Source: a virus
Lineage: Duplodnaviria; Heunggongvirae; Uroviricota; Caudoviricetes
Virus record (IMG/VR): IMGVR_UViG_2758568661_000004
Reading direction: 5' to 3' (one strand)
DNA length: 64,000 nucleotides
Part shown: piece after piece, positions 30,042-55,428 of the stretch
Layout of the letters: each line of letters starts with the position of its first letter
How positions within the stretch are numbered: the first letter of the stretch is position 1
Made by a program: the position numbers and the translations under genes
The notes under the pieces: generated by a model
Told to the model about the DNA's origin: nothing
Seen by the model: the letters and a program-made list of their open reading frames with translations, nothing else
Database searches by the model: none

Positions 30042-30650
30042 TCACAGTCCCCGGATGCCGGTCTTCGCGTTCCGGTTGGTGCGGGCCTCCAGCTGCCTCA
30101 GCAGCGACCGGCCGAACGACCACCGTTCGTGATGATCCCAGTTCGGGTTCGGTATCAGATGCTGTGCGAGAGCGTCCAGACGGAGTCGGCCGTCCTCTTT
30201 CGTGGCGGTGTTCGCGGCGTCGATCGTCGCGGACACACCGTCGCGGAACTGGTCGCGGTCGCGGGCTTGCAACCATTCGGAGTTGAGGATTTTGGTGGCG
30301 AGCAGATCAGCGGATTTGTCATCCGCCTTCACCCCGGCCGCCGTGATCAGGTCGAGCAGGTACCGGTGGTCGAACGGGAGTGTGGTGACCGGGTCCAACC
30401 GTCGGACGGGGCGACGGAACAGCCTCTGCAGCCATGTCTGCTGCATGTACAGCGGCTCCCGGAAGGTCTTCCGATCCGCCGGGTACGGGTCGAGCCTGCC
30501 TTCGGTGAGGATGACCTTCTCCCCGGATAGCAGCTGCACTTTGTACTCAACGTTCCCGTGGGCGGTCAGCACCACACCGACCTCGCCAACGTTCGGGCCT
30601 GACTTCACGATGACCGGGTCGTTGTCGAAGTACCTGTCGGTTTCGCTCAT
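30042..30650 (-). CDS. hypothetical protein with KOW-like N-terminus
   Basis: ORF track; VIVKSGPNVGEVGVVL. Confidence 0.55.
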   Translation of the reverse strand: MSETDRYFDNDPVIVKSGPNVGEVGVVLTAHGNVEYKVQLLSGEKVILTEGRLDPYPADRKTFREPLYMQQTWLQRLFRRPVRRLDPVTTLPFDHRYLLDLITAAGVKADDKSADLLATKILNSEWLQARDRDQFRDGVSATIDAANTATKEDGRLRLDALAQHLIPNPNWDHHERWSFGRSLLRQLEARTNRNAKTGIRGL

Positions 30651-30805
30651 GCGGTCACCCCGAGAAGGTGTCGGGTTTCCACAGCGGCGAGCTCTTTGAG
30701 GGTGGGCGCATGCCCGACTGTCTCATCGAAGCTCCCGCAGATGCAGGTGGCGTGGACACCGTCATCGTTGACGGTGTAGCTGACGCGGATCTCATGCGGC
30801 TCCAA
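30647..30805 (-). CDS. possible small Cys-containing protein
   Basis: C-terminal ~52 aa of ORF 30647..31000 (…VSYTVNDDGVHATCICGSFDETVGHAPTLKELAAV…); start uncertain (TTG); ATGA coupling to next gene. Confidence 0.3.
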   Translation of the reverse strand: MEPHEIRVSYTVNDDGVHATCICGSFDETVGHAPTLKELAAVETRHLLGVTA

Positions 30806-31265
30806 GGGGAACCTCCTCTGTCCATAGGTGGCGGATGATGATGCGGGCGGCACGGCGTGCCTTGTTGTGCTGGCCGGAGCCGAGGATGACGGGTCGCTCT
30901 TGGTAGGAGGACCATGCGCTGAGGCACCATTCGGAGGATGTGACCTCGAGGATGAGCTTGCGAATCTTCCCGTCCCAGTGCACGTCGACGGCACCGTCAC
31001 GGCGGGTCAGGTCGAACTGTCCAGCGAGTACCAGCGAATCTGGGAGCTGCCGGAGGATGGCTGCTGCATTCATCCCCTGGGTTCGGTTCCGGGCGCGTGT
31101 GTCGTTCAGGAGACCGGCGATGGTGAAGGACGCCGCAACCTGCTCTCGTCCTTCGTCCGCGGGTGTCAGGTTCCGTCGTGCGGGCCTGGCGAATGGGCGT
31201 GCGAACACGACGATGATCACGATGGCTGGTACGACGACGATCAGGAGGATGGCAGCCACGATCAT
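30792..31265 (-). CDS. membrane-anchored hypothetical protein
   Basis: ORF track; N-terminal TM; GGAGG SD. Confidence 0.55.
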   Translation of the reverse strand: MIVAAILLIVVVPAIVIIVVFARPFARPARRNLTPADEGREQVAASFTIAGLLNDTRARNRTQGMNAAAILRQLPDSLVLAGQFDLTRRDGAVDVHWDGKIRKLILEVTSSEWCLSAWSSYQERPVILGSGQHNKARRAARIIIRHLWTEEVPLGAA

Positions 31266-31639
31266 GCGGAAGCCTCCACAGCCTGTCTGACGGCGGCTGC
31301 GCGCTCCTCATCGGTTTCATGCGGGTTCCGGATCTTCGAACCGCCGATCACCACGATGTGCTGGTCGATGAAACCTTCGAAGGGTTCGTCATCCTGGACA
31401 TGCTTGGCGGCGTAGCTGATAACCGCGGTGCGGCCTTCATTGAACGCTTCTCGCCGGATGTGGCGGATGAAGTCGGAGGCGAGGATGGAGGTGACGATGC
31501 GGTCACGGTCTTCAACCGCCATGTACGTTGTCACAGCGCGGGGGATCCCGTTCTCCGGGAACGATGCGGTGATCGTGTCGTATCCGATGGCCGCTTCGAG
31601 CGCTCGAGCTTCGGGGGTGTTCAGGAGGTCGTTCGTCAT
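31262..31639 (-). CDS. hypothetical protein
   Basis: ORF track (..32011) trimmed to class-II motif ATG (MTNDLLNTPEARALEAAIGYDT); ATGA overlap. Confidence 0.5.
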   Translation of the reverse strand: MTNDLLNTPEARALEAAIGYDTITASFPENGIPRAVTTYMAVEDRDRIVTSILASDFIRHIRREAFNEGRTAVISYAAKHVQDDEPFEGFIDQHIVVIGGSKIRNPHETDEERAAAVRQAVEASA

Positions 31640-31938
31640 GCGGCGGCTTCGCTTTCCTTCGAGGGCTTGGACAGGTCGACGGTGGTCTGGCTGACGCCGG
31701 TAGCGGCGGCGGTTTCCTCGTCGAGGATTGACTGCTCGCACAGGGTGCACAGGTCGCCGAACTGGTAGATGGCGCAGGTTTCCTCGTGCGTCCACACCTT
31801 GTCGCCGTTGTGGTCGCGGACGGAGCAGTCCGGGAACCCTCCCCCGCCGCAGCAGGGGCAGAGGGGTTCGTCGGCGTACTCGGCCGGGTCGGTGAACTCT
31901 TCCAGGCCCCATTTCGTTTGGATGGTGATCGTGGTCAA
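31636..31938 (-). CDS. Cys-rich hypothetical protein
   Basis: ORF track; CPCCGGGGFPDC...CTLCEQS. Confidence 0.5.
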   Translation of the reverse strand: MTTITIQTKWGLEEFTDPAEYADEPLCPCCGGGGFPDCSVRDHNGDKVWTHEETCAIYQFGDLCTLCEQSILDEETAAATGVSQTTVDLSKPSKESEAAA

Positions 31939-32486
31939 CGGGACTCCTTCTTCGGGGTGCGGTTGGCGAGCATCCGCGAAAGTTCAGGGAACGGGATGGT
32001 GGTCGCTGCACGCCCGGATTTCGTCTTCATCGACGCGAGGACGGTTGCAACGTCGCTGTGCAGTTCGATGAGCGGTGGCAGGCCGACGGGGACGTTCGGT
32101 ACGGAGCCGGACGCAGCATGTTTCGCCCATGCGAGCCTCTGCTGTTGGATGCGGCGGAGGAAGTCGTGCATGTCGTCCACTTGGACGCCGGGTCGGGTGT
32201 ACTCGACCGCCAGCTGCTGTAGGCGGCGCCGTTCCCGTTTAGAGAACTCTGGTGCGTCCTGGCGTGGGGTGGTGGCAGCGATCAAGTCAACGAGCGAGCG
32301 GTGGTACACGTCAGGCTGGAACCGGTCGAGGGTGTCCCTGACTTCGATGAGCAGGCCCAGTTGAATGCCGAGCTCATCCAGAGTCTGCGGTGGGAGCAGG
32401 GCGGTCTGCCCGATGACAGCGTTCACCTGGGTGAGCAGCTCGTCGAATGGGATGTGCGTTTTCACGGAGTTGCTTGCGGCGCTCAT
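31935..32486 (-). CDS. hypothetical protein
   Basis: ORF track. Confidence 0.55.
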   Translation of the reverse strand: MSAASNSVKTHIPFDELLTQVNAVIGQTALLPPQTLDELGIQLGLLIEVRDTLDRFQPDVYHRSLVDLIAATTPRQDAPEFSKRERRRLQQLAVEYTRPGVQVDDMHDFLRRIQQQRLAWAKHAASGSVPNVPVGLPPLIELHSDVATVLASMKTKSGRAATTIPFPELSRMLANRTPKKESR

Positions 32487-32610
32487 CTGCTTCCCCCTGG
32501 CCGGTAGATCGTGTCAGCCGCCCCGATGTGGAGGTCATGCAGTTTCCCGCCGGCGCAACGACCGGCGGCATGGCGGAGCCGGTCGGGTGGCAGGGTGTTG
32601 CGCAGCATGA
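32487..32610 (-). CDS. small hypothetical protein (~41 aa)
   Basis: ATG behind GGAGAC SD downstream of class-I motif 32649; stop TGA overlaps start of 31935..32486 (ATGA). Confidence 0.3.
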
Positions 32611-32673: not shown

Positions 32674-33696
32674 TTACTTGGCGGTGGGCGCTGGGAGGCG
32701 AGCCATCTTGTGCGGCACGTTCAACCTCCCGAACCCCGGGAGCATCACCTTGTAGTTGGCGGGGTTGACCTTCTCCACGGTGCCCACCGCGAGATGGTAT
32801 TTCGTCCCTGGCGCCCAGATGACCGCGGGGTTGCCGGGTTTGATTCGAACACCACGGGGAACTTCGATGGGTTCACCGGTCGCCACCTGGGCGTCCCCTA
32901 CAGCTACGGGCGGCTTCTCGGGGATGGGTTTGTTGGCGCCGCGACCGTTCTCGGTGAAGCTGACCGACTCGAACGGGATCAGATATTTTGTTCCGCCGGG
33001 GATGGCGTACACGTACTTGGTGCGTCGCGATTCCACGATCACCCCGACCTCACCGGTTCTGGTGATGATCTCGTCACCACTTCTGGCGAGGGGAAGGTAT
33101 TTCCCTTCGTACAGTTTCCGGAACGCATCCTCACCGCGTACAGCTCCGGCGTTTTCCGGTTTGGTGGCGTTGAGCTTTCGTTCCTGATCTTCGGCGTACG
33201 GGTTCACACCACACCTGTCGCCGGTGCATCCGATCCGGCGGGCGTTCGCTTTCCATTCGGGGCCGTGGATGACCCGGCGGCGGCGTCCGGAAGGCCCGAC
33301 AGTGAAGGTTGTTGGCGTGATGGCGTGTGCAATCTCATGCAGGACGGTGTTCCGGAATTCATCCTCCGAAGCGAACCTCGTGTAGTGGGAGCTGACCGAG
33401 ATCGTCTTGGTTGACTTCATGCACCAGCCGATGCGGCTCTTTTCGTTGTTGAACTCGAAACGCCACCCGTCTTTGAGTAGCCCATGCTCCCCCATCTGAT
33501 CCATCGCGAACTCCCGCGCGGTGTCCACATCCCAGGGGCGGTTGACCGTGAGGCCTCCGAACTCCTCAGACCCGTGCTGATGGGCGACGTAGGTTCCCGG
33601 TCTCGCCGAACCAGTAGACGGGGCGTGCCCGCGTCCGGTTATGTCGATGACACCGATTGGTGCTCCGAACGTTGCTAGGTTCAGGCTCTGACTCAT
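32674..33696 (-). CDS. SprT-like zinc metalloprotease domain protein
   Basis: ORF track; VLHEIAHAITP HExxH motif. Confidence 0.6.
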   Translation of the reverse strand: MSQSLNLATFGAPIGVIDITGRGHAPSTGSARPGTYVAHQHGSEEFGGLTVNRPWDVDTAREFAMDQMGEHGLLKDGWRFEFNNEKSRIGWCMKSTKTISVSSHYTRFASEDEFRNTVLHEIAHAITPTTFTVGPSGRRRRVIHGPEWKANARRIGCTGDRCGVNPYAEDQERKLNATKPENAGAVRGEDAFRKLYEGKYLPLARSGDEIITRTGEVGVIVESRRTKYVYAIPGGTKYLIPFESVSFTENGRGANKPIPEKPPVAVGDAQVATGEPIEVPRGVRIKPGNPAVIWAPGTKYHLAVGTVEKVNPANYKVMLPGFGRLNVPHKMARLPAPTAK

Positions 33697-34001: not shown

Positions 34002-34256
34002 TCAGCCGATCCGGTCGTTTTCGAGCATGTCGCGGACGAACTCGTCGAACTCCGGGTTGTTCACCGGTTTGGGTGTGGGGCGTGGCCGGCCGTGACGGAT
34101 GCGATGGTGCAGCTTCCGGAGCTTCCGTCGAGGTTCGTCTTCTGCGTCATCGAAATGCTCGTCGAGGCCCAACGATTGAGCGATGAGGAACACAAGGACG
34201 GCGCGCACTGTGAGGGCTACGGCACCGAGGAGGATGTCGGTTGCGAACGTGTTCAT
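34002..34256 (-). CDS. small membrane protein
   Basis: ORF track; N-terminal TM. Confidence 0.5.
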   Translation of the reverse strand: MNTFATDILLGAVALTVRAVLVFLIAQSLGLDEHFDDAEDEPRRKLRKLHHRIRHGRPRPTPKPVNNPEFDEFVRDMLENDRIG

Positions 34257-34687
34257 GCAGCGGCCGACTCCGGGGTTGCCTCATCCAGGTACCACCAGAT
34301 GACGTATTCGTGCTCCCATTCCCAATCGAATTCGCCGTCGGGGAAGGAGCCGTCCTCGAGGGCACGGTCACCGGTTTCGTCGGTGCAGGTGTCGCGGAGG
34401 TTCCCGTCCAGCCACCACAGCATCCAGCAGGTGTCATGCGGGTTGTAGTCGCATCCGCACGGCCAGAAGTCATGGTCGCAGTCAGGGTGCAGATGGCAGT
34501 AGGAGCCCTGGTCGCCGTCGCAAACAGGTTGACCGTCCACGATGCGGTGCACGGCACGCGGCGCTGCGAGCACGTCCGCCGGGGTCTCCTGGCGAGGCAC
34601 CGCCGGTGCCACCGGTGCAGGCTTGGGGGCACCGACGTAGAACTCTGGATGCTCGACGATGTGCTGGGCGTGGTCGATGGTAGTCAT
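34253..34687 (-). CDS. Cys/His-rich metal-binding hypothetical protein
   Basis: ORF track (..34876) trimmed to MTTIDHAQHIVEHPEFYV behind TGAGGAC; CHLHPDCDHDFWPCGCDYNPHDTC. Confidence 0.55.
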   Translation of the reverse strand: MTTIDHAQHIVEHPEFYVGAPKPAPVAPAVPRQETPADVLAAPRAVHRIVDGQPVCDGDQGSYCHLHPDCDHDFWPCGCDYNPHDTCWMLWWLDGNLRDTCTDETGDRALEDGSFPDGEFDWEWEHEYVIWWYLDEATPESAAA

Positions 34688-34774
34688 CAGAGTCCTCAAT
34701 GGTCGGTGCGGGTCTACGTCTGAGGAATGCGGCGGGCACCCTTCAACGTGAAGGTCATGCGCAGAAACAGTGAA

Positions 34775-34800
34775 CGCCGCCACCTCGCGAGGTGGCGGCG
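34775..34800 (-). terminator. perfect 13-bp palindromic hairpin CGCCGCCACCTCG/CGAGGTGGCGGCG
   Basis: 22 nt after the stop of 34822..35694; next class-I motif follows at 34756. Confidence 0.55.
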
Positions 34801-34821
34801 TCCAAACGGATTCGTGGTTTG

Positions 34822-35694
34822 TCAGCCTTCGTCGGCAGCGACAGTGAAACGGTCGGTGATCTTGGCGAGTCCCCAACCGTCGAGCCGGTAGATGACAGAT
34901 TTGGCGGCTTCTGTGGTCAGCCCGTACGTGTCGATGAGGTGGCGGGACAGTTGTGTGGAGCGAACGTCGCCGCCCTGTCGGAGGATCCAGGCGAGCACAT
35001 CGTCGATGTCGACACCGCTGATCTCTCGCTCGGTGCGACGCATGAGCACGTCGGCTGCGTCGAGGCGGGCCTGCTGACGCCGGCCATCACCGGGGAGCGG
35101 CTCGTCATGCCGAAGCCCCAGATGGGCGCGGAGGATGACCTCCACCATGTTCGCCGCATCAGACAGGCCACCGTTGTACCCACGCTGGAACTCAGACCCA
35201 GCCCGGTTCGGGTGGCGGAACGATTCGGCTAGGTCGGCAACCTGCTCGGCGAGGTTCTCCGCACCGGCACGGCTTACCCGGGCTGTTGCGCCGGCATCCG
35301 ACTGACGGATGACCGCCTCGGACACCACAGTGTCCACCGTGACGTTCCGGTCCTCAGCGGTTGTCGCGGCGAGGATGGTGGCGGCCGGTGACAGCTTGAC
35401 CACGGAAGGGTCACGGTCACCTTCGATGTGCTCCCCGACCAGGTGGAACCAACGCCCGAGCCCGTTCGCGTGCTGAACATCTTCGGGGTAGTCGCCGGCG
35501 CCGAGAGCGCTGACCTCATCTGAGAGCATCAGGTGGTTGAGGCTGAGGTCACCCAAAGCGTGCAGGACAGCAGCGACCTGGTTGATGGTGGGTGCCGGGT
35601 CGCCGTGCAAGTACACGCTCCCGGACACCGCCAGATGCGCTGTGATGCGGTCGCCCGGGTGCTGCCCTCCGATGGTGAATGCTGCGTCGGTCAC
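34822..35694 (-). CDS. hypothetical protein with C-terminal winged-helix-like region
   Basis: ORF track; GTG start overlapping upstream stop (GTGA); C-term STQLSRHLIDTYGLTTEAAKSVIYRLDGWGLAKI. Confidence 0.55.
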   Translation of the reverse strand: MTDAAFTIGGQHPGDRITAHLAVSGSVYLHGDPAPTINQVAAVLHALGDLSLNHLMLSDEVSALGAGDYPEDVQHANGLGRWFHLVGEHIEGDRDPSVVKLSPAATILAATTAEDRNVTVDTVVSEAVIRQSDAGATARVSRAGAENLAEQVADLAESFRHPNRAGSEFQRGYNGGLSDAANMVEVILRAHLGLRHDEPLPGDGRRQQARLDAADVLMRRTEREISGVDIDDVLAWILRQGGDVRSTQLSRHLIDTYGLTTEAAKSVIYRLDGWGLAKITDRFTVAADEG

Positions 35695-36131
35695 TGGTTC
35701 TCCTCCGTAGCAAGTGCGGCGGCGATCGCTTCCAGGACTTCGATCTCCTCGGCTTCCGGGTCGTTCAGGTAGTCGATGATGAGTTTGCGTGCCGCGGTCC
35801 GCTGGGCGAGCAGTTCTTTGTTCTCCTCGAGCACGTCGGTGGCTTCGTCAGCGGTCATCCCGCCGGCGTACTGCTCGTTGGACAGGACAACCCACCGCCC
35901 GGACTCGGACGGCACTGTCCTCTGGAAGTTGTCTCGGGCGGCGTCACGGAGACGCCCCACCTCAGCATGCTCGGCGTTCACCCGGTCGATGAGTTTCCGG
36001 ATGACAGCAAAAGTCCCCTTCTTCACGTCACTGTCTGTTGTCCGCCATGCTTCTGCGGTACGCCATTCCTGGTCGATGTACTGGGCGGCTTCCGTGGTGA
36101 GCTCGTCGATGGTCTGCTTGTTCTCAGTCAT
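35691..36131 (-). CDS. acidic helical hypothetical protein
   Basis: ORF track; 8-nt overlap with upstream gene. Confidence 0.55.
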   Translation of the reverse strand: MTENKQTIDELTTEAAQYIDQEWRTAEAWRTTDSDVKKGTFAVIRKLIDRVNAEHAEVGRLRDAARDNFQRTVPSESGRWVVLSNEQYAGGMTADEATDVLEENKELLAQRTAARKLIIDYLNDPEAEEIEVLEAIAAALATEENQ

Positions 36132-36624
36132 CCTGGTCTTCCTCGTAGTAGTCGCGCATCCACGCCATGATCTGCTGGCCTTGGAAGGTGATGACGTTCC
36201 GCTTCCGGCGGCGGGCGCGCTGTATACGGGATCCGTGACGGCCGACAGCTTTCACGTTGAAGGACGGCTTCCCCATCGCTTCTGGCCGGTCCCGGTTCCA
36301 GCCGGGGGTGTTGTCGCAGGGGCAGCCGATGACACCGAAGCCTCCGGTCACTCTTCCGTGCTGGTCGAGGGTGTGGGTGCAGTTCCCCCATGCGCATCGC
36401 ACCTGGGATCCGTACTTTCGGCGTTCGCGTGCAGCCTGCTTCGCTTCCGCGCGGACACGGGTGAGGGACGGGTTGTTGGAGTCGATGCCCACCATCTTGG
36501 CGAGGGTGTCCTGGTACACAGGCTCGTAACCGGGCTGCTCTGTGAGGGCTTTGAAAGCCTGCATCTCCGGGGTGCGCCAGTAACGGACGTCGTACCGTTT
36601 CCGGGTCTTCGATTTCCGTGTCAT
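36124..36624 (-). CDS. basic Cys/His-cluster protein (zinc-finger or HNH-like, unassigned)
   Basis: ORF track; CAWGNCTHTLDQHGRVTGGFGVIGCPCDN. Confidence 0.5.
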   Translation of the reverse strand: MTRKSKTRKRYDVRYWRTPEMQAFKALTEQPGYEPVYQDTLAKMVGIDSNNPSLTRVRAEAKQAARERRKYGSQVRCAWGNCTHTLDQHGRVTGGFGVIGCPCDNTPGWNRDRPEAMGKPSFNVKAVGRHGSRIQRARRRKRNVITFQGQQIMAWMRDYYEEDQDD

Positions 36625-37313
36625 CGGTCTTCCTTCGGGGTGTAGTTCAAGGTGACGGTGTACTGGATGGTGACCTCTGCGGCGTTCGCGAGGTACCGCA
36701 GCTCCGTCAACGTCATGTCGTACTCTCCGGCGAGGACCGACCGCACCTTCTCGACCGGCTGGTCAAGACGTTCCGCGATCAGTTCCACCGGGACGGTGGT
36801 GGTGTTCCTGATCGCTTCGATCAGCTGCTCTTGGGATTCGTAGTTGCTGGACGCGGCACGGGCTACTTCGTCAGCGAAGGCTGGACTTCCGATCAGCTGC
36901 TCCGTGAACCACACCTTCAACAGGTTGGTGGGGATCTTCTCCTGCTGCTCGGTGACGCACGTCTCCCACGGGGAGCCGGGGACGGCGATCAGGTTGTTCA
37001 GATGGGTGCCGCTGAGCGCTCCGTACTGGGCGGTGATGCTGTCCAGGATCACCCGCTGTTTGACGGTGATCGCGTCGATGTTCCCGGCGTCCCAGCTGCC
37101 GATGGTGTACCGGCCGTCGTACCGTGACCGGAGGTCGGCGGAGAAGGGGCAGCCGGGCAGGGCGGTGAACTGCTCGTTGAACAGAGGGTCGCCGGTCAGG
37201 GCGAGGGACCATCCTTGTGCGATGTAGGTGAGGGCTTGCAGTTTCGAGGTGGAGACGCCTTCGTTCGGGAATCGGGCGACGATCCCTGCGGCAATGTCAT
37301 GGATGGTCGTCAT
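36621..37313 (-). CDS. Panacea (DUF4065, SocA-like) domain protein, putative antitoxin
   Basis: ORF track; KLQALTYIAQGWSLALTGDPLFNEQFTALPGCPFSADLRSRY matches the Panacea-domain core; ATGA overlaps on both sides. Confidence 0.6.
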   Translation of the reverse strand: MTTIHDIAAGIVARFPNEGVSTSKLQALTYIAQGWSLALTGDPLFNEQFTALPGCPFSADLRSRYDGRYTIGSWDAGNIDAITVKQRVILDSITAQYGALSGTHLNNLIAVPGSPWETCVTEQQEKIPTNLLKVWFTEQLIGSPAFADEVARAASSNYESQEQLIEAIRNTTTVPVELIAERLDQPVEKVRSVLAGEYDMTLTELRYLANAAEVTIQYTVTLNYTPKEDR

Positions 37314-37660
37314 TCGCGACCCTTCGTGGATGCTTGGCCGACGAGGACGCCGAGGACGTGGACGGCGTTGATCCCGGCGAGCATCGCTTCGGTCTTCTCA
37401 AACTTGGATGTGCGATCGTTCGCCCCTGCGAGATGCTGTGTGAAAGCGGTGGTGAATGCTGTGTACAGCTCCTGCTGGCGTTCATCCGCGATGTTCGGGT
37501 TCGCCCCCGGCATGGCTGAGGCGACCATCCCGGTACGTATGGTGCTCTTGAGGGCCTTCCGGTACCAGGGTGTGGCAATCCAGGTGAGCGCCCAAGAGGC
37601 GATAGCCCACGCCGTTCTGTCGCGGGCGCGACCGAGCGTGCTGCGGTCAGCTGTGATCAT
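37310..37660 (-). CDS. small membrane-associated hypothetical protein (first gene of coupled operon)
   Basis: ORF track (..37693) trimmed to ATG behind CGGAGGA SD (MITADRSTL); hydrophobic TAWAIASWALTWIATPW; 13-codon motif uORF ends ATGA on start. Confidence 0.5.
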   Translation of the reverse strand: MITADRSTLGRARDRTAWAIASWALTWIATPWYRKALKSTIRTGMVASAMPGANPNIADERQQELYTAFTTAFTQHLAGANDRTSKFEKTEAMLAGINAVHVLGVLVGQASTKGRE

Positions 37661-37710
37661 CTGAATCCTCCGTGCGTTGTGGTGCTTACACACCTCATGC
37701 GCAGAACAGG

Positions 37711-38485: not shown

Positions 38486-38493
38486 GGAAGGTT

Positions 38494-38504
38494 CATGCGC
38501 AGGA
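38494..38504 (-). promoter_or_regulatory. class-I junction motif, representative
   Basis: GTCCTGCGCATGAACCTTCCATGACA; fixed 11-nt register. Confidence 0.6.
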
Positions 38505-38512
38505 CGCGATGG

Positions 38513-39360: not shown

Positions 39361-39401
39361 GGCTTGCTCCCTCTGGTGTCACTGGGTTCATGCGCAGAAC
39401 A

Positions 39402-39803
39402 TCAAGCGGAAAGGACAGTTGACGCCAACCGAAGGTGAGCTGCGAACCGGACAGGGAAGCCGGGGTCAGCTTGGTCAGCACCCAATGCTTCATTCAGCAG
39501 GTCAAGTTGTGGTTGGACGGTGCGATGCAGCGTGGCGATGAGCAGTGCGTCGTCGCGGCGGACAACCACCGGTTCCATCGACGGGCCTTCCAGCCGGCCA
39601 TCGACCGATTCCAGTTCCGAGTACCCGTCCACCGTTTCGTAGCAGGACAGGCACCGGCAACCAGCCTCGAGGCGGGTGTGAGGTTCCACCGCCCACGGTC
39701 CGGTAGAAGAGAACTGGGTGAGGTATTCAAGCCGGGAGATGGCCGCGGTCAACAGTTCGTAGTTCCGGCCGGCGTCCCCGGTGAGGAAAGATTCGGCGGT
39801 CAT
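39402..39803 (-). CDS. Cys-containing hypothetical protein
   Basis: ORF track; class-I motif begins 1 nt after its stop. Confidence 0.55.
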   Translation of the reverse strand: MTAESFLTGDAGRNYELLTAAISRLEYLTQFSSTGPWAVEPHTRLEAGCRCLSCYETVDGYSELESVDGRLEGPSMEPVVVRRDDALLIATLHRTVQPQLDLLNEALGADQADPGFPVRFAAHLRLASTVLSA

Positions 39804-41842: not shown

Positions 41843-43327
41843 TTACGGCTTGATCGTCCACGCCTGGTTCTTGAACTCGAACCATTTCGTCTGGTCGGTG
41901 GTGGACCCGATACCCAACCCGATTGCGCCAGCCCATGGGGTCAGGTTCACCGGGAACAGGGTGGTGCCGGACACGACCACTGTCCCTCCTGACGGGGCAG
42001 CCCACACATCAGCTGTCTTCGGGAAGAACTGCTGTGCCGTGGTGTTCTCAGAAGACAGGTAGTCCGTGGAACCGTCAGTGTTGCGGATGACAGCCAGCCA
42101 CCCTTGCTTGCGTGTGGTGAAGTACGTCGGCAGGTAGAACACCTTCGACCCGCTGATGACGTCAACGTGGTAGCCGATGTTCACGGTGACAGCGTCGATG
42201 TCGATGGTTGTGCCGACGCCGCCCCAGTTGACGGAGCCGACCATGACCCTCATGCTGGCGGTGTTCGTGGGTGAGTCAGATGCGAGCGAGCCGCCCATGC
42301 GAGCCCATGTTCCAACGGCGGAGGTGATGTCCGTGCCCGTTGTCACAGCGGTGCTGAGTGCCGTTCCCGCGGCGTTGTAGAACTGAACTTGGACACGCAG
42401 GTTCGTGGCGAAGCTCGCCCTTCCCATCAGGCTCAACGTGTACCGCTTCCCTGCGACAGCAGGGATTGTGTACGCGCCGGCACCGTCCAGATATGCGGAT
42501 TTTGTGGTGACTTGCAGTGAACCGCCGGTTGTCTGGGTGGCGCGGATGTAGGAGCCGCCTTCAGGCGCGTCCGCTGCGGTGACCCTGGCGAATGTGGCGC
42601 CGGTGACAGCCGGGAATCGCGTGGCACCGGTGGTGTCCGTTTCGAAGCTGCCGTCGGTGACCAGGTTGGAGTAGTCCGGGTCTGGGCTGAGGAGGACTTT
42701 CGCTGCCTCCCCGGAGGAGAGGACGGGTTTCCCGTAGGCGGTGTCCAAGGCGGGCAGCGAGTTGCTGTACGACCCGTTGGCGGTGAAGTAGGCAGCCTCC
42801 GCAGCGGCCAGTTTCGCGGGTGTGGTCAACGGTGTCGGCGGAGGTGTGACGGCGACGGATCCGTCGCCACCGTTCGCCACATCGGCAAGGCCGGCGAGCA
42901 TGACTGTGAACGCAACACAGGAGCTGGTGTCCGGGATGGGTTTGCCGTCCCGGTACTCCCCGATGGTGTCGGAGGCGTTTGACCGCCAGAACACTGAACC
43001 TGTCGGGGATTGGGTTGCACCCACCCAGCAGGTTCCGGCCGGGTTCGCCTGAACGAACACATCCTTCCGGTCCGGCATGAGTTGCGCGGCGCGAAGCACT
43101 TTCAGTTCCCCATACCCGGAGTACTGGGATTGGTGTGCGGCTTCAGCGATCGCGACTGTGTTCAGGTTCTGCTTGGTGGCTTGATCCTGCGCCCAGGGTA
43201 CGGCGGAGAACACCACTGGCAGTGCGACAGCGGTGATGATTCCGACGATCAGAACACCGACCATGATTGACGCAAGGTCAATGGCGGCGCGGCTGTTTCT
43301 GGCGAACGTGTGGAGCAGGCGAAGCAT
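41843..43327 (-). CDS. membrane-anchored secreted protein with CBM4/9-like (DGSFE...) carbohydrate-binding-type domain
   Basis: ORF track; hydrophobic N-terminus IDLASIMVGVLIVGIITAVALPVVF; Thr/Pro linker; C-terminal beta-rich domain; no LPxTG. Confidence 0.55.
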   Translation of the reverse strand: MLRLLHTFARNSRAAIDLASIMVGVLIVGIITAVALPVVFSAVPWAQDQATKQNLNTVAIAEAAHQSQYSGYGELKVLRAAQLMPDRKDVFVQANPAGTCWVGATQSPTGSVFWRSNASDTIGEYRDGKPIPDTSSCVAFTVMLAGLADVANGGDGSVAVTPPPTPLTTPAKLAAAEAAYFTANGSYSNSLPALDTAYGKPVLSSGEAAKVLLSPDPDYSNLVTDGSFETDTTGATRFPAVTGATFARVTAADAPEGGSYIRATQTTGGSLQVTTKSAYLDGAGAYTIPAVAGKRYTLSLMGRASFATNLRVQVQFYNAAGTALSTAVTTGTDITSAVGTWARMGGSLASDSPTNTASMRVMVGSVNWGGVGTTIDIDAVTVNIGYHVDVISGSKVFYLPTYFTTRKQGWLAVIRNTDGSTDYLSSENTTAQQFFPKTADVWAAPSGGTVVVSGTTLFPVNLTPWAGAIGLGIGSTTDQTKWFEFKNQAWTIKP

Positions 43328-43431: not shown

Positions 43432-44196
43432 TCAGCCTTGTGCTGCGACTTGGGCTGCGATCACCTTCGGCGGTCCAGCTGACAGGGGTCGCCAGTTGTC
43501 GAACACACCGAACGCTGCAATTCGTTTCGCGGTGGAGTACAGCGGGGTGCAGGTGGTGAGGGTGATGACCCGTTCGGTGGGTGTCTGGTCGACGACCGGT
43601 TCCCCGTTCATCCCGGGGACGGCATCCAGCACCTCCACATGATCTGGGGTGACGATCTCCTCCTGCTGGAACAGGTACGTGTACCAACCATCCTTCGTTT
43701 GGACGATGATCGGGTCACCGGGCACAAGCTGGTCAATCCAGTGAAGACCTCCGCCGTACGCGGACCGGTGGGACGCGACAGCGAAGTTCCCGTACGCGCC
43801 GGGCAGGTTGGTGTCCGGGTAATGTCCGAGGCCGAGCTCGAATGAGTTCAGGACGTCATGTCCGATGCCTTCGGCAATGTTCCGCCGGTAGTCAGGACCG
43901 AACCTGGGGACGTAGAGGACAGCGAAAGCTTCACCGTTGCCGGCTGGTGAGTCGGCGACCGGCGGTTCGCCGTAGTCGATGGTGTAGTCGGGGCTGTGAG
44001 GGGTGACATCCTTCACCCATTCCTGGGAGGTGGCGTCTGCCGCTGAGGATTGCTGGTTCACGTAGATGGCGTCCTGCCAGAACAGCTTCCATCCGAGGAA
44101 CAGCAGGATGAGGACCGCTGCGGTCATCAGCACCTCACCGGAGATGGTGAACACGGTGGCGCGCGAACGGCGCTTGGCTGGTGCGGTGTCAGTCAA
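43432..44196 (-). CDS. sortase (class E-like transpeptidase)
   Basis: ORF track; N-terminal TM; catalytic TLTTCTP (TLxTC) motif; TTG start behind AAGGAC SD. Confidence 0.8.
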   Translation of the reverse strand: MTDTAPAKRRSRATVFTISGEVLMTAAVLILLFLGWKLFWQDAIYVNQQSSAADATSQEWVKDVTPHSPDYTIDYGEPPVADSPAGNGEAFAVLYVPRFGPDYRRNIAEGIGHDVLNSFELGLGHYPDTNLPGAYGNFAVASHRSAYGGGLHWIDQLVPGDPIIVQTKDGWYTYLFQQEEIVTPDHVEVLDAVPGMNGEPVVDQTPTERVITLTTCTPLYSTAKRIAAFGVFDNWRPLSAGPPKVIAAQVAAQG

Positions 44197-44205: not shown

Positions 44206-44508
44206 TTACGGTGCGGGCTGGTCAGCTACCCCATGCGCAGAACCGGCAACCTGGGCGTAGTTCCACCGTGACAGGGACGGGTGAACACCAGCACCGGCGG
44301 TCTTCTCATGCAGATGCCCGTGGTACTCCTCGAAGCTGCCCGTGTGCTCACCGCACCCGCAGACGTACACACCGTCAACGAATTGTGGGGTGTGCGCAGC
44401 GAACACCTGACCGAGCAGCGACACGTTCACGGCGATACCGGCGTTGGTCACTGTTGTCAAATGGGTGGTCACGGATGCTCCTCGTGGGTTGGGGTTCACG
44501 GGAGGCAT
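44206..44508 (-). CDS. Cys/His-cluster hypothetical protein
   Basis: ORF track; VCGCGEHTGSFEEYHGHLHEK; class-I motif encodes ...GSAHG... near its C-terminus; start is motif ATG 44508 or GTG ~44469. Confidence 0.5.
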   Translation of the reverse strand: MPPVNPNPRGASVTTHLTTVTNAGIAVNVSLLGQVFAAHTPQFVDGVYVCGCGEHTGSFEEYHGHLHEKTAGAGVHPSLSRWNYAQVAGSAHGVADQPAP

Positions 44509-44516: not shown

Positions 44517-44780
44517 CTAGGCGGGGAGGCTCACTCCGGCGTTGATGAGTGCTGCCGCGTACATGTGTTCACGGGTGACACCGAACGACCATTGGCAGTT
44601 GTCTTCCTCCCAGCAGAGGTGGTCGCCTTCGCCGCCTTCGTACAGGTTCCAGTCCTCGTCGGTGGCGTGCGGTCGGAAGCAGTGGGTGCAACGGCCGTCA
44701 AGGGCATGCTCGAGGACTGTGGTGATGCTCAGAACTTCCGGGGTCAGCGCCGGAAGGTTATCGATCGTGGCGACGGTCAC
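44517..44780 (-). CDS. Cys-rich hypothetical protein
   Basis: ORF track; CTHCF...HLCW. Confidence 0.5.
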   Translation of the reverse strand: MTVATIDNLPALTPEVLSITTVLEHALDGRCTHCFRPHATDEDWNLYEGGEGDHLCWEEDNCQWSFGVTREHMYAAALINAGVSLPA

Positions 44781-45121
44781 GCGGTCACCTCGACGGTGGC
44801 GGTGGGGTGTGCTTCGCAGGCGTCTGCGATGTCCAGTAGGAACCGGACTGTGGATTCGACTGTGCCGTTCATGATGGACGGGGTGACACCGTCGCGGCGT
44901 CGCGGGACGTGGTGCACGAAGTCGGCAGGCCGGATGGCGATCTGGTGAGCTGCGGCACGAACCGGCTGCACCATGGTGGCTGCGGGTGCCCCGTTGAAGT
45001 CTTTGAGGTTGACGCCGGCGTCACGCCACATCTGGGCGGTGTTCGAGGTGTGGTTCGCGTAGAACAGTTCCCGGTCGGTGCCGTCGGTGGCCTTCTCAAC
45101 CAGGGTGACGTCGTAGCTCAT
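44777..45121 (-). CDS. hypothetical protein
   Basis: ORF track trimmed to ATG behind GGAAGGA (MSYDVTLV); 18-codon motif uORF ends ATGA on this start. Confidence 0.55.
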   Translation of the reverse strand: MSYDVTLVEKATDGTDRELFYANHTSNTAQMWRDAGVNLKDFNGAPAATMVQPVRAAAHQIAIRPADFVHHVPRRRDGVTPSIMNGTVESTVRFLLDIADACEAHPTATVEVTA

Positions 45122-45186
45122 GTGATGCATCCTTCCACGGCTGGTCGTTCCAGCCTCGTCTTCACCAACCTCATGCGCAGGAACTG

Positions 45187-45899: not shown

Positions 45900-45938
45900 C
45901 TGGTCAAACCTCCTTCTCGAGGTGTCATGCGCAGAACG

Positions 45939-46556
45939 TCACGCGAGACGCAACGGAACCCATGCTTCATGGATGAGTTCAGCGACTGTCCCGGGTTGAG
46001 TTCCGGTGAGGGTGCCGAGGCGGGTGACGGATGCGTCATGCCCGTCCGGGTCACGGAGATGCAGTGCGGCGACTGTCAGTTGCGGGTGCGCGTCGATGAG
46101 CCACAGCCAGACGTCGTCGGCTCTGGCGCCGCCGAGATGAGCACATACCTGTGAGGACAGGCTCTCGTTCTCTTCCGCCGGCAATGCTTGGTGGGCGCCG
46201 TCGATGAACTCCACACTGGTCAAAGCCCAGCCGCGGCCGATGGCGTACCCGGCAAGGTGGAGCATGTCCCCGGTTCCGAACCTGGGGATGGAGAGTCCAA
46301 GGTTCGGGTCTTCGAAGTCGATGGGTGTGTCACCTTTGCCGACGGTTTCCGCGACGACTTGCGGGTCGGTGCTCGCAGCGTCAGCGACAACCAACTGTTC
46401 AACACTCGGGGCGGTGTTCAAGTGTGCGCGGATCGCGGCGATCGTGTCACCGACAGCTTCCTGGTAGATGGCTGCGGCGTCCGGGTGGAGCATGTCCGGG
46501 GGTGCGGCGGATGAGGCTGCGTCCAACGCGGCCTCGACGGCTGCTGGCACTGCCAT
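45939..46556 (-). CDS. hypothetical protein
   Basis: ORF track (..46643) trimmed to ATG behind GGAGGGGAG (MAVPAAVEAAL). Confidence 0.55.
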   Translation of the reverse strand: MAVPAAVEAALDAASSAAPPDMLHPDAAAIYQEAVGDTIAAIRAHLNTAPSVEQLVVADAASTDPQVVAETVGKGDTPIDFEDPNLGLSIPRFGTGDMLHLAGYAIGRGWALTSVEFIDGAHQALPAEENESLSSQVCAHLGGARADDVWLWLIDAHPQLTVAALHLRDPDGHDASVTRLGTLTGTQPGTVAELIHEAWVPLRLA

Positions 46557-47720: not shown

Positions 47721-47782
47721 TGTGAATCCTTCATATTGATGGTCGATTTCTAACGTCTCATGCGCAGGAGCGACAGGCGAGA

Positions 47783-48315: not shown

Positions 48316-48854
48316 GCTCGGATCATGCGCAGGATCGCGGCTGCACCAGCGCGGGCAGTCGCGACTGTCGCGTGCACAGCGGGGACGGCGACGTCCCTGA
48401 TTGTGACCGCTGCCTTCGACAGGTGTGGTTGCGCGGCGGCGGCAGCACGGCGGGCAACGTCCATGGTCGCTGGCGCTGTTTCAGAGGCGACCCGGGAGGT
48501 GTGCGCCAACGCAACCTGTCGCGCACCAGCGGTGATGTGGCGGAGGTCACGGACGGCGGGGCTGCCGGCAACCATGTCCACCCGGCGTGCAAGCTGACTG
48601 GCTGCCGGTGAGTTCCGGATAGCATCCAACCTCAGGTCAACCCTGTCCGGGTGGGCGACATGGTTGCCGTCCAGGATCAGCTGGAACCACTCCTGGTCAG
48701 TCATCACTGCCCCGGTCTCCGGGGATACAGCATCGAGCAGTGAATCGGCGATGCTTCCGGGGATCCCGGTGAGGATGCCGGTGCGGGCGTGCACGGCCAA
48801 TGCGACCACAGCAGTGGCGAAGGTCACAGCCAGGACGATGATGATCTCGGACAT
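48312..48854 (-). CDS. membrane-anchored hypothetical protein
   Basis: ORF track; C-terminus ...AILRMIRA* is the class-I motif read in frame; stop overlaps the next ATG. Confidence 0.55.
   Translation of the reverse strand: MSEIIIVLAVTFATAVVALAVHARTGILTGIPGSIADSLLDAVSPETGAVMTDQEWFQLILDGNHVAHPDRVDLRLDAIRNSPAASQLARRVDMVAGSPAVRDLRHITAGARQVALAHTSRVASETAPATMDVARRAAAAAQPHLSKAAVTIRDVAVPAVHATVATARAGAAAILRMIRA
48324..48334 (-). promoter_or_regulatory. class-I junction motif embedded in C-terminal coding sequence
   Basis: GATCCTGCGCATGATCCGAGCATGACG; near-identical junction at 48856-48880. Confidence 0.6.
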
Positions 48855-50688: not shown

Positions 50689-51744
50689 TCAGTTCAGGTG
50701 GTTGAGTTCGCCATCATCCGGGAGGGTGACAGCGAACGCCCACTCGGGGATGTGCTGACGTTCGATCATCACATCCAACAGTCGCGGGAACGTGAACCCC
50801 GGCGCGGCGGCCATGGACCGGTGAACCACCACAGCGGCGGCGGAGCTTTTCCCTAACGCCCACAGCAACCATCCGGCCATCGCCAACGGTGCAGCATCCA
50901 ACCCGTCCGGCGCCAGAGCAGCCAAACGGAGGCACAACCGGGTTGCGGCGTCAACACGGTGGGGGTCCGGGCGTGGTCCGATGCCTCGGAACAGCTCACC
51001 GAAGCTGTCGTCGCTGACAGATCCTGTCTCCGCGTACTCCTGCCGGTCCCGATCTGCGAGAGCCCCCACATCATCACCGAACGCCCATCGGAGCAGGGTG
51101 ACATCCCGATGGGCTGGCTGCTGGAACAGAACCAGCAGGTTGGCTGCACGCACAGGATCCGGCATCCCGTCCAAAGAGCCGGTAACCACGTCAGAGGTGA
51201 CGCCGTCCACGTTCACCAGCTTCAACGCTGAGGCAACCGCGGCGCGTTCCGCATCGGACGCGGCAGGGAGTACCGCGTCAGCATCCACAGCCACAGCTGG
51301 GGCTGGCGCGATTGCGTTCACCGGTGAGCTGGTGACCATCTCCCACGGGAAACCGTTCGTTGGTGTGTCCGGGTCCAGCAGGGAACCCCACCCGTCCTCA
51401 CAGACGATCAAGGCGTCACGCACCTGATACCCGCTTGAATCGGCGAGGTCACAGAAACTGAACAGCTGCGACCTGAACTCGGTCGTCTGGTCGCCGGCGA
51501 AACGCCCGTCGGCGTACAACACAGGGACGATACCGTCAGCCACGTCCACACGCGCAACCAACCCCAGCATCGACGATGCGGAACCTGGCGCACCCAACAC
51601 CGCACTGTCCAGCCGGAGCGCTCCGGCGGTGCGGTTACCGGCAAACATCACCAGCACCAGTGAATCCTTCGGCTGGTATCCAAGGAGAGTGGGCAGCAGC
51701 GCGAGAAGGTCCTCAGGCTTGGAAGCGCGGATCACATCAGTCAT
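50689..51744 (-). CDS. DUF4192-family protein
   Basis: ORF track; N-terminus ...PEDLLALLPTLLGYQPKDSLVLVMF resembles DUF4192; own promoter region after a terminator. Confidence 0.65.
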   Translation of the reverse strand: MTDVIRASKPEDLLALLPTLLGYQPKDSLVLVMFAGNRTAGALRLDSAVLGAPGSASSMLGLVARVDVADGIVPVLYADGRFAGDQTTEFRSQLFSFCDLADSSGYQVRDALIVCEDGWGSLLDPDTPTNGFPWEMVTSSPVNAIAPAPAVAVDADAVLPAASDAERAAVASALKLVNVDGVTSDVVTGSLDGMPDPVRAANLLVLFQQPAHRDVTLLRWAFGDDVGALADRDRQEYAETGSVSDDSFGELFRGIGPRPDPHRVDAATRLCLRLAALAPDGLDAAPLAMAGWLLWALGKSSAAAVVVHRSMAAAPGFTFPRLLDVMIERQHIPEWAFAVTLPDDGELNHLN

Positions 51745-51885: not shown

Positions 51886-51901
51886 TCCTGTTTGTTACTG
51901 G

Positions 51902-55418: not shown

Positions 55419-55428
55419 CGGGGTGTCG

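What the first reader, a model, noticed from the sequence alone, without database searches (positions are those of the whole stretch)
34775..37706. Five-gene, fully translationally coupled operon containing a Panacea (DUF4065) domain protein: candidate toxin-antitoxin or defence module
A discrete transcription unit begins with a class-I motif at 37696, whose 13-codon uORF ends ATGA on the first gene, and ends with the perfect 13-bp hairpin at 34775-34800. All five genes overlap by ATGA, GTGA or 8-nt overlaps. They are a small membrane-associated protein (37310-37660), a Panacea/SocA-like domain protein with an HTH-like tail (36621-37313), a basic Cys/His-cluster protein with an HNH- or zinc-finger-like cluster (36124-36624), an acidic helical protein (35691-36131) and a 290-aa protein with a C-terminal winged helix (34822-35694). 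Panacea domains are reported as hyper-promiscuous antitoxin domains neutralising diverse adjacent toxins, including small membrane toxins. The gene immediately upstream fits that description, and the three extra coupled genes could make this a larger defence-type cassette.
Basis: partly seen in the sequence, partly recalled or inferred. Interest (0 to 1): 0.75.

Follow-up and report, generated by a model that had tools for sequence, protein, structure and literature searches.

The report
Panacea–HTH fusion in conserved operon
The five overlapping genes are real and one does carry a Panacea antitoxin-type domain, but that domain is a one-off addition fused to the DNA-binding regulator of an operon that exists without it in a related bacterial mobile element, so a toxin-antitoxin or defence role is possible but unproven.

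Summary
Five minus-strand genes (37660→34822) are joined by ATGA/ATGA/8-nt/GTGA overlaps. A recurring motif with a 13-codon uORF precedes them, and a −29.9 kcal/mol hairpin follows. Gene 2 passes the Pfam Panacea threshold (28.1 vs 25.7 bits).

The interpretation needs revision.
- Gene 2 is an end-to-end fusion of a complete Panacea protein (residues 1–~142) with a complete small XRE-like HTH protein (~148–226).
- The only orthologous cassette found (Leifsonia sp. Leaf264) has g1, the HTH as a separate 90-aa gene, g3, g4 and g5 (split in two). It sits between the same motif and a terminator, and it has no Panacea.
- None of 55 other Panacea loci carries any other cassette gene.
- No toxin, HNH or defence (PADLOC) signature was found. 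g1's membrane propensity is marginal.
- Overlapping junctions are the norm in this element (52%).

Best reading: this is a conserved backbone operon of a rare Micrococcales plasmid/ICE-like element. A panA gene was inserted into it and fused to its HTH regulator. The fusion may work as a modular antitoxin or sensor-regulator, with g1 the best candidate partner. That would be a new architectural variant of a known kind. Interest is moderate.

The parts
37695..37709 (-). Copy of the element-wide intergenic motif CTGTTCTGCGCATGA. It lies immediately after the stop of the upstream gene (37711) and may be a promoter or a leaderless-start signal.
   Evidence: 12 copies, all on the minus strand, against 1.98 expected. 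A variant, TTCCGCACATGT, sits at the equivalent position upstream of the Leifsonia g1-like gene.
37657..37698 (-). 13-codon uORF. It starts at the motif's ATG and ends in an ATGA overlap with the g1 start.
   Evidence: Read directly from the sequence and translated. In Leifsonia the uORF is reduced to ATG-TAG, so its peptide is not conserved.
37310..37660 (-). g1: a 116-aa basic protein (pI 10.1) with one Trp-rich, marginally hydrophobic segment (residues 15-33). It is the first gene of the unit and the best candidate partner or toxin for g2.
   Evidence: Leifsonia ortholog at 38% identity with conserved GRARD / IATPWY / RTGM motifs. Hydropathy is marginal. No Pfam, PHROG, PADLOC or plasmid tblastn hits.
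36888..37313 (-). g2 N-terminal module (residues 1 to about 142): a complete Panacea/DUF4065 domain.
   Evidence: Pfam PF13274 at 28.1 bits, above the 25.7 cutoff. It matches full-length stand-alone Panacea proteins of 140-160 aa, best 46% identity.
36636..36872 (-). g2 C-terminal module (residues about 148-226): a divergent XRE/Cro-type HTH with the signature D(L/M)TLTELRYLANAA.
   Evidence: It matches residues 6-84 of 90-aa stand-alone proteins at about 50% identity. Family members give sub-threshold Pfam HTH_26/HTH_3 hits. PDB profile hits fall in HTH regions but are weak.
36124..36624 (-). g3: a 166-aa basic protein (pI 10.1) with an invariant Cys4 cluster (C77, C82, C101, C103) and an invariant basic tail, VKAVGRHGSR(I/V)QRARRRK.
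   Evidence: 65-68% identical to its Leifsonia ortholog. A Leifsonia paralog and a soil-metagenome fragment also exist. No HNH or other family hit. The AF2 model is low confidence.
35691..36131 (-). g4: a 146-aa acidic (pI 4.5) protein. Only the C-terminal ~40 residues are conserved with Leifsonia.
   Evidence: 54% identity over 39 aa. The Pfam and PHROG hits are sub-threshold and are not reproduced by the ortholog.
34822..35694 (-). g5: a 290-aa multi-module protein. Its N-domain (residues 1-92) also occurs as a stand-alone ~112-aa protein. Residues 98-134 have a β-α-α, RHH-like topology. The C-terminal half ends in a three-helix bundle.
   Evidence: In Leifsonia it is two genes (166 and 165 aa, 51-54% and 50% identity) with g3 between them. 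The N-domain is found on Curtobacterium and Frondihabitans megaplasmids. AF2 mean pLDDT is 50, with residues 221-270 at 70-85.
34771..34804 (-). Terminator-like hairpin: 15-bp stem, CGCG loop, weak T tract.
   Evidence: -29.9 kcal/mol. A GC-rich hairpin lies at the equivalent position after the last Leifsonia cassette gene.
34755..34769 (-). The next copy of the motif (TGTTTCTGCGCATGA), opening the following unit.

Best explanation
The five genes form a conserved backbone operon of a rare family of Micrococcales plasmid/ICE-like elements. It is not a self-contained PanAT module.

Shown:
- The ancestral unit consists of g1, a small XRE-like HTH protein, a Cys4 basic protein (g3), an acidic protein (g4) and a multi-module protein (g5). 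It is bounded by an element-specific motif and a terminator.
- In this element a complete Panacea gene occupies the slot between g1 and the HTH gene. It has fused end to end with the HTH gene.

Inferred:
- The fusion works like the modular PanA antitoxins described by Ernits et al. 2023.
- The HTH dimer binds DNA and (auto)regulates the unit.
- The Panacea domain is an add-on that binds a protein partner or senses a cue.
- The most likely partner is g1. It is encoded immediately upstream and ATGA-coupled. In Leifsonia it is followed in the same slot by an unrelated 130-aa protein (X), which looks like an antitoxin swap.
- On this view g1 plus Panacea-HTH would be a TA-like maintenance pair at the head of the operon.
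- g3, g4 and g5 are a separately conserved set whose basic, zinc-cluster and helical features suggest nucleic-acid binding. They serve the element's own regulation or maintenance, not a toxin-accessory role.
For: - Panacea passes the Pfam threshold.
- g2 is a two-module fusion of two otherwise complete proteins.
- The Leifsonia cassette has g1, HTH, g4, g5N, g3 and g5C with conserved motif and terminator boundaries, and no Panacea.
- X occupies the Panacea slot with 4-nt and 8-nt overlaps and is unrelated to Panacea.
- Tight coupling plus SD-like sites on every gene.
- Literature precedent: HTH-bearing PanAs, and Panacea appended as an accessory or sensor domain to MqsA (ZBD-HTH-Panacea) or carrying a C-terminal Phd-C (PMC8832971; PMC10440598).
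- The closest HTH relative sits in a prophage immunity/integration region, overlapping the integrase gene. This fits a regulator role.
- The setting is a mobile-element array with orphan Dam, SprT-like, ligase and DUF4192 genes, where addiction modules are common.
Against: - No gene carries a recognisable toxin domain, and PADLOC finds nothing.
- g1's membrane propensity is marginal and weaker in the ortholog.
- g1, g3, g4 and g5 persist without Panacea in Leifsonia, so none of them strictly needs it.
- The four closest Panacea relatives have no recurrent partner. More distant Panacea loci in the same analysis do, which serves as a positive control.
- Only about half of all DUF4065 proteins lie in TA-like loci, and this locus fails the criteria that define those.
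- There is only one orthologous cassette, so the comparative inference rests on a single case.
- No operator-like inverted repeat was found upstream of g1.
- The structure models were too poor to test any fold.
Confidence: 0.4

Rival explanations
1. The operon is purely regulatory or for maintenance and contains no toxin. The HTH protein is a transcription regulator of the element's life cycle. g1, g3, g4 and g5 are small DNA-binding or structural cofactors for regulation, replication or partition. Panacea is a sensory or adaptor add-on that tunes the regulator, and nothing is neutralised.
For: - The cassette is part of a syntenic backbone: 16 of 43 Leifsonia genes are shared, and shared genes flank the cassette on both sides.
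- Panacea is dispensable in the ortholog.
- The HTH relative lies next to an integrase in a prophage immunity region.
- g3 is basic with a Cys4 cluster, and g5 has RHH-like and three-helix elements.
- No toxin signature was found.
- Ernits et al. favour a sensor role for Panacea.
Against: - Every experimentally characterised Panacea protein in the two papers read here is an antitoxin.
- The DNA-binding folds of g3 and g5 are not confirmed by any significant hit.
- No function can be assigned to g1 or g4.
Confidence: 0.3
2. The operon is a five-gene anti-phage defence (abortive-infection) cassette. Panacea-HTH is the sensor and repressor, and g1 and/or g3-g5 are the effectors.
For: - TA and defence systems overlap extensively, and Panacea is proposed to act as a trigger sensor.
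- The unit is tightly coupled, bounded, and sits on a mobile element.
Against: - No PADLOC hit on any of the five proteins.
- No nuclease, NTPase, pore-forming or other effector domain was found.
- The cassette behaves as conserved backbone, not as variable cargo in a hotspot.
- The supposed sensor domain is absent from the ortholog.
- The family is extremely rare: only the window and Leifsonia among 5.8 billion protein clusters.
Confidence: 0.1
3. g2 is an anti-defence decoy. The element carries an orphan Panacea antitoxin domain to neutralise host PanT-type toxins, or TA-based immunity, when it enters a new cell. Its fusion to the cassette's HTH protein is incidental.
For: - The panA gene appears to have arrived without a recognisable cognate toxin.
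- The surrounding array carries genes typical of establishment or anti-restriction regions: orphan Dam methylase, SprT-like protein, ligase, dNMP phosphatase.
- The closest Panacea relatives are also solo genes in arrays of small mobile-element genes.
Against: - The fusion to a DNA-binding module and the tight coupling on both sides argue for integration into the operon's own function.
- No precedent for Panacea as an anti-defence protein was found in the papers read.
- Natural PanAs are specific for their cognate toxins.
Confidence: 0.1

Closest known systems
PanAT type II toxin-antitoxin systems (Panacea/DUF4065 antitoxins; Kurata et al. 2022, PMC8832971)
   Same: g2 has a genuine Panacea domain. 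It sits on a mobile element and overlaps small adjacent genes, one of which (g1) is small, basic and encoded first. Toxin-first order occurs in 325 of 1,268 PanATs. Many PanAs also carry an HTH.
   Different: The operon has five genes, not two or three. The Panacea-partner pairing is not conserved in any second genome. The HTH is C-terminal, whereas the 343 described HTH-PanAs have it N-terminal. No partner resembles any known toxin. Toxicity is untested.
Modular PanAs in which Panacea is an accessory domain (B. fungorum MqsA-type ZBD-HTH-Panacea; C. doosanense Panacea plus C-terminal Phd-C; Ernits et al. 2023, PMC10440598)
   Same: Panacea is joined linearly to a pre-existing antitoxin or regulator module that also exists on its own. 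Here that module is the 90-aa HTH protein of Leifsonia. The HTH would supply DNA binding and dimerisation, and Panacea a sensor or partner-binding function.
   Different: The domain order is reversed (Panacea-HTH). The HTH belongs to a small uncharacterised family, not to MqsA. There is no ZBD, PAD1 or Phd-C neutralising element. The conserved partners number four genes instead of a single toxin.
SocAB of Caulobacter crescentus (SocA is a Panacea protein that acts as a ClpXP adaptor for the toxin SocB; from general knowledge, and cluster T10 in PMC8832971)
   Same: The two share the Panacea fold family. NCBIfam SocA_antitoxin gives a weak local match.
   Different: The match is 23.9 bits against a 190-bit equivalog cutoff, so g2 is not a SocA equivalog. 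There is no SocB-like partner.
XRE/Cro-C1 HTH antitoxins and mobile-element repressors (HigA/VapI type; phage repressors adjacent to integrase genes)
   Same: The g2 C-terminal module has the HTH sequence pattern. Its relatives occur as small stand-alone proteins in prophage immunity/integration regions. It gives weak profile hits to HigA/VapI-type and lambda-repressor-like structures.
   Different: All hits are below family thresholds. The family has its own signature (NYExQ…DLTLTELRYLANAA…Y.V) and no characterised member.

Membership tests
PanAT (Panacea-neutralised TA system) | The antitoxin carries a Panacea/DUF4065 domain above the Pfam gathering threshold | tested here: met
   PF13274 at 28.1 bits against a 25.7 cutoff, near full profile coverage. 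Reciprocal hits to stand-alone Panacea proteins.
PanAT (Panacea-neutralised TA system) | The partner gene lies within 100 nt of panA | tested here: met
   g1 and g3 each overlap g2 by 4 nt.
PanAT (Panacea-neutralised TA system) | Two- or three-gene architecture, with a neighbourhood that does not suggest a longer operon (criterion 3 of PMC8832971) | tested here: not met
   Five coupled genes lie between the motif and the terminator. The ortholog has eight genes between the same boundaries.
PanAT (Panacea-neutralised TA system) | [quoted passage not shown] | tested here: not met
   The only orthologous cassette lacks Panacea. 55 other Panacea loci lack all cassette genes. The closest Panacea relatives share no partner, whereas distant ones do.
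PanAT (Panacea-neutralised TA system) | The partner is toxic, and PanA neutralises it by forming a complex | not testable with these tools
   This needs expression and neutralisation assays and pull-downs.
Known anti-phage defence systems (PADLOC-DB v2) | At least one protein matches a defence-system HMM | tested here: not met
   No families at E ≤ 0.1 for any of the five proteins. DefenseFinder was not available.
HNH endonuclease (g3) | An HNH/His-Me finger profile match with conserved catalytic His and Asn | tested here: not met
   No Pfam, NCBIfam or PHROG HNH hit. His84 and His89 are not conserved in the homologs; only the four Cys and His130 are.
XRE/Cro-C1 HTH family (g2 C-terminal module) | A match to the HTH_3, HTH_26 or HTH_31 profiles at the gathering threshold | tested here: inconclusive
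   g2 itself gives no hit. Family member P0145 scores 21.2 bits on HTH_26 (cutoff 22) and 18.9 on HTH_3 (cutoff 23). PDB profile hits fall in HTH regions but have E > 0.01.
SocA antitoxin equivalog (NCBIfam NF047745) | Score at or above the curated equivalog cutoff | tested here: not met
   23.9 bits against a 190-bit cutoff.
Winged-helix and ribbon-helix-helix DNA-binding domains (g5) | A confident fold or a profile match | tested here: inconclusive
   AF2 mean pLDDT is 50. There is a C-terminal three-helix bundle at 70-85 with no wing strands, and a β-α-α element at 98-134 at pLDDT 54-62. No significant Foldseek or PDB-profile hit.

The most novel reading that the evidence does not exclude
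The window and Leifsonia cassettes would be a natural pair, with and without Panacea, of an undescribed multi-protein system carried by Micrococcales mobile elements. In it, g1, g3, g4 and g5 form a conditionally harmful or defensive effector set under an XRE-type regulator. Panacea has been grafted onto that regulator as a trigger sensor. That would be a Panacea-controlled system with more than three components, and a direct handle on the open question of what the Panacea domain senses.
Probability: 0.15. Interest if true: 0.7.

Novelty: new variant of a known kind. Interest (0 to 1): 0.4.

Why it matters
Why the Panacea domain is so promiscuous, and whether it neutralises toxins directly or acts as a sensor, is still open (PMC10440598). 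Here a complete Panacea protein is fused to the C-terminal HTH regulator of an operon whose ortholog keeps the regulator as a separate gene without Panacea. That pair forms a natural comparison. It could show what Panacea adds to a pre-existing regulator or antitoxin and which co-encoded protein it contacts. The case is also a caution: a Panacea hit alone does not identify a TA module, because the rest of this 'cassette' is conserved independently of it. The practical value is limited. The family is extremely rare (two loci), and none of the four partner proteins can yet be assigned a function.

Tried and rejected
- Megablast of the operon, of 1-25 kb and of 30-42 kb against phages and plasmids found no match.
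- PADLOC and NCBIfam gave nothing useful.
- The weak PHROG hits for g3 (phrog_6114) and g4 (phrog_21046), and the sub-threshold Pfam DUF6197 hit for g4, are not reproduced by the Leifsonia orthologs. I treat them as chance.
- Word-indexed homolog searches for g2, g3 and g5 returned only the query, Leifsonia and one fragment.
- Viral-contig scans for g3 and g5 found nothing. tblastn of g1 and g3 against plasmids found nothing.
- The AF2 models of g5 and g3 had pLDDT 50 and 47, too poor for fold assignment. Foldseek against the PDB gave a best E of 0.18.
- PDB profile searches for g3, g5, the RHH-like segment and the C-terminal segment gave no significant hits.
- I tested whether Leifsonia protein X is a cryptic Panacea domain. 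hhalign probability is 0.1%.
- I tested whether X-HTH is a recurring pair, using the L007 upstream ORF. BLASTP E = 24, so this is rejected.
- I considered a prophage origin for the window. No capsid, portal, terminase, tail or integrase families were found among about 90 proteins.
- I looked for an operator-like inverted repeat upstream of g1. None is conserved.
- Two alignments were too divergent for the locus search tool.
Full report
**1. The observation**

The window is a 63% GC contig (Logan assembly SRR7126390_18, 66.8 kb). Nearly all its genes are on the minus strand. g1 starts at the ATG at 37660, with GGAGGA 7 nt upstream. The alignment with its ortholog supports this start. All five starts have purine-rich SD-like sequences.

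The motif CTGTTCTGCGCATGA lies at 37695-37709. Its ATG (37698-37696) opens a 13-codon uORF whose stop overlaps the g1 start. The hairpin at 34771-34804 has a 15-bp stem and folds at -29.9 kcal/mol. The next motif copy follows it at 34755-34769.

Two features are less special than they look. Overlapping junctions make up 23 of 44 (52%) in this part of the contig, and a longer run of six lies at 30042-32608. The motif is element-wide: 12 copies, all on the coding strand, against about 2 expected.

**2. The Panacea protein is a fusion**

Pfam confirms SocA_Panacea on g2 (28.1 bits, cutoff 25.7, residues 25-116).

An exhaustive HMMER search of 1.8 billion representatives found 942 relatives, and they fall into two groups. 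Stand-alone Panacea proteins of 140-160 aa match g2 residues 1 to about 140, best 46% identity. Small proteins of 80-140 aa match residues about 145-226 at 40-54% identity. The second group covers residues 6-84 of a 90-aa protein, so g2 joins two essentially complete proteins end to end.

The C-terminal family carries the signature NYExQ…D(L/M)TLTELRYLANAA…Y.V. Its members give sub-threshold Pfam HTH_26/HTH_3 hits and weak PDB hits in HTH regions of sigma factors and of HigA/VapI-type and lambda-repressor-like proteins. It is therefore a divergent XRE-like HTH. That assignment is inconclusive by threshold.

**3. Comparative genomics**

Scanning 185,579 species genomes with the HTH signature returned one locus, in Leifsonia sp. 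Leaf264. Its gene order is as follows:
- g1-like (38% identity)
- X (130 aa, unrelated to anything in the window)
- stand-alone HTH (90 aa, 53%)
- Y (112 aa)
- g4-like (C-terminus 54%)
- g5 N-half (166 aa, 51-54%)
- g3-like (65-68%)
- g5 C-half (165 aa, 50%)

There is no Panacea. X is not a cryptic Panacea domain (hhalign probability 0.1%).

A variant of the motif (TTCCGCACATGT) precedes the g1-like gene, and a GC-rich hairpin follows the last gene. The unit boundaries are therefore conserved. Synteny extends beyond the cassette: 16 of 43 Leifsonia genes have window counterparts, on both sides of it. The cassette is part of a shared backbone and is not mobile cargo.

In the other direction, 55 other Panacea loci share only the Panacea domain with the window. 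These are 51 viral contigs, three Arthrobacter-group megaplasmids and the closest relative, L069.

In an all-against-all neighbour comparison, distant Panacea loci show recurrent downstream partners. Those are the expected PanAT pairs and serve as a positive control. The four closest relatives of g2 show none.

The other modules also have independent distributions:
- The g5 N-domain is a stand-alone ~112-aa protein on Curtobacterium and Frondihabitans megaplasmids.
- The g3 zinc domain recurs with different upstream partners.
- The nearest HTH relative lies just upstream of, and overlapping, a tyrosine integrase in a prophage immunity region.

g3 and g5 are otherwise found only in Leifsonia among 5.8 billion protein clusters.

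**4. What the other proteins are**

None of g1, g3, g4 or g5 has a significant Pfam, PHROG, NCBIfam, PADLOC or PDB-sequence match.

- **g3** is basic. It has four invariant cysteines (C-x4-C-x18-C-x-C) and an invariant basic tail.
- **g1** has one Trp-rich segment with marginal membrane propensity. The Wimley-White sum is -6.9 kcal/mol, but the Kyte-Doolittle mean is 0.42. The ortholog is weaker and has an Arg in the middle of the segment.
- **g4** is acidic, and only its last ~40 residues are conserved.
- **g5** modelled poorly (pLDDT 50). It shows a β-α-α element at 98-134 and a three-helix bundle at 221-270 with pLDDT 70-85. Neither Foldseek nor PDB profiles confirm a fold.
- The **g3 model** was also poor (pLDDT 47).

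**5. The element**

About 90 window proteins were scanned. No capsid, portal, terminase, tail, integrase or T4SS ATPase families were found. The recognisable functions are:
- an orphan Dam methylase, an HD dNMP phosphatase and an ATP-dependent ligase
- a SprT-like protein and a DUF4192 protein
- two M23 peptidases
- a sortase next to a pilin-like protein
- three giant secreted Ig/reprolysin proteins

The right end of the window (from about 51.9 kb) carries host-like genes: flotillin, an AI-2E transporter and VanZ.

The best relatives of several modules are in Micrococcales (Leifsonia, Curtobacterium, Frondihabitans, Paen- and Pseudarthrobacter, Microbacterium). I infer a plasmid- or ICE-like element of a Micrococcales host. 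The replicon type is unresolved.

**6. Mechanism**

Shown:
- The unit is bounded and coupled.
- g2 is a Panacea-HTH fusion.
- Panacea is lineage-specific within a conserved cassette.
- A non-homologous protein (X) occupies the same slot in the ortholog.

From the literature:
- About half of DUF4065 proteins lie in conserved two- or three-gene TA-like loci.
- HTH extensions are common but N-terminal.
- PanAs bind their toxins directly (PMC8832971).
- Panacea can also be an accessory, probably sensory, domain attached to a module that itself neutralises and binds DNA, for example ZBD-HTH-Panacea or Panacea-Phd-C (PMC10440598).

Inferred: g2 is a modular antitoxin-type regulator. Its HTH supplies DNA binding, and its Panacea domain binds a partner or a cue. 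g1 is the most likely partner, because of its position and because of the apparent swap of the protein that follows it. I put this at 0.4.

A toxin-free regulatory operon is nearly as likely (0.3). A five-gene defence system (0.1) and an anti-defence decoy antitoxin (0.1) are not excluded.

**7. Comparison and novelty**

The locus works like a PanA-type module in at most its first two genes. It is not a member of the PanAT class as defined, because two of the defining criteria were tested and failed.

The Panacea-then-HTH order and the embedding in a five-gene conserved unit are, as far as the two papers read here show, undescribed. Both are modest variations on known modular PanAs, so I rate this a new variant of a known kind. 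Interest is moderate. The pair of cassettes with and without Panacea is a useful natural experiment on what Panacea does. However, the case rests on one ortholog, and four proteins have no assignable function.

Noticed in passing
window 885-899, 3830-3844, 8714-8728, 28503-28517, 34755-34769, 37695-37709, 38493-38507, 39388-39402, 44231-44245, 45925-45939, 47758-47772, 48323-48337 (all minus strand); L006 ~1526, 7670, 15523, 16784, 19071, 19304: The motif (G/C)TTCTGCGCATGA occurs 12 times, only on the coding strand, against about 2 expected. It sits at gene boundaries, just after or over the upstream stop and 10-50 nt before the next start. Its embedded ATG opens mini-ORFs of 2-14 codons. Three of these end in ATGA on the next gene's start, and two are in frame with the downstream gene. 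A variant, TCCGCGCATG / TTCCGCACATGT, sits in intergenic gaps of the related Leifsonia element. It may be an element-specific promoter or a leaderless-mRNA start signal. It has no sigma-70-like hexamers.
   Followed up: partly
window 34822-35694 versus L006 9489-9989, 10001-10507 and 10500-10997: g5 is one gene in the window. In Leifsonia it is two genes, with the g3 ortholog lying exactly between the halves. This is either a gene fusion or a split by relocation of the small Cys4 gene. A second g3 paralog lies 3 kb downstream in Leifsonia (L006 13573-13944), next to a homolog of window gene 44777-45130.
   Followed up: partly
L064 7001-7345, L065 6971-7306, L066 ~7001-7267; L002-L004: 'Non-mobilizable' megaplasmids of 420-570 kb in Microbacteriaceae and Micrococcaceae carry the same style of long one-directional arrays of small unknown genes. 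These are mixed with nucleic-acid enzymes: ligases, RNA ligase, oligoribonuclease, HNH, exonuclease, RNase H, thymidine kinase and peptidyl-tRNA hydrolase. The g5 N-domain and the closest annotated Panacea relatives lie in these arrays.
   Followed up: partly
window 4712-8158, 12011-17023, 16912-21312; 41843-43327; 43432-44196; 1319-2578; 2610-3833: Three giant secreted proteins (1148, 1670 and 1466 aa) combine Ig-like repeats with reprolysin-type metalloprotease domains. The same window has a sortase next to a 494-aa protein with a pilin-like N-terminus, and two M23 peptidases. None of the giant proteins ends in an LPXTG-type sorting signal.
   Followed up: partly
window 21343-22140, 25773-26768, 10976-11959, 32674-33696, 50689-51744: The window carries an orphan Dam-type (D12) methyltransferase, an HD-domain dNMP phosphatase (64% identical to a Leifsonia element gene), an ATP-dependent DNA ligase, a SprT-like metalloprotease and a DUF4192 protein. 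This gene set is reminiscent of establishment or anti-restriction regions of plasmids. No restriction partner for the methylase was seen.
   Followed up: no
window 34253-34690 (first gene after the terminator): A ~145-aa protein rich in Cys, His and Trp (…CDGDQGSYCHLHPDCDHDFWPCGCDYNPHDTCW…) follows the next motif copy and a 14-codon uORF. No family was assigned to it.
   Followed up: no
L068 8001-9480: In the closest stand-alone relative of the g2 HTH module (P0023, 50% identity), the HTH gene overlaps the start of a tyrosine integrase gene by 8 nt. Two other HTH genes and a divergent early operon (excisionase-like HTH_17, RusA, Dam, WhiB) lie beside it. The layout recalls the repressor-integrase arrangement of temperate actinophages.
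   Followed up: no
window ~51900-64000: The right end of the window changes character to host-like genes: an SPFH/flotillin protein, an AI-2E transporter, VanZ, and DUF4190, DUF2510 and DUF4333 membrane proteins. Some of these are on the plus strand. This may mark the edge of the mobile element, but no integrase, tRNA gene or repeat marking a boundary was found.
   Followed up: no
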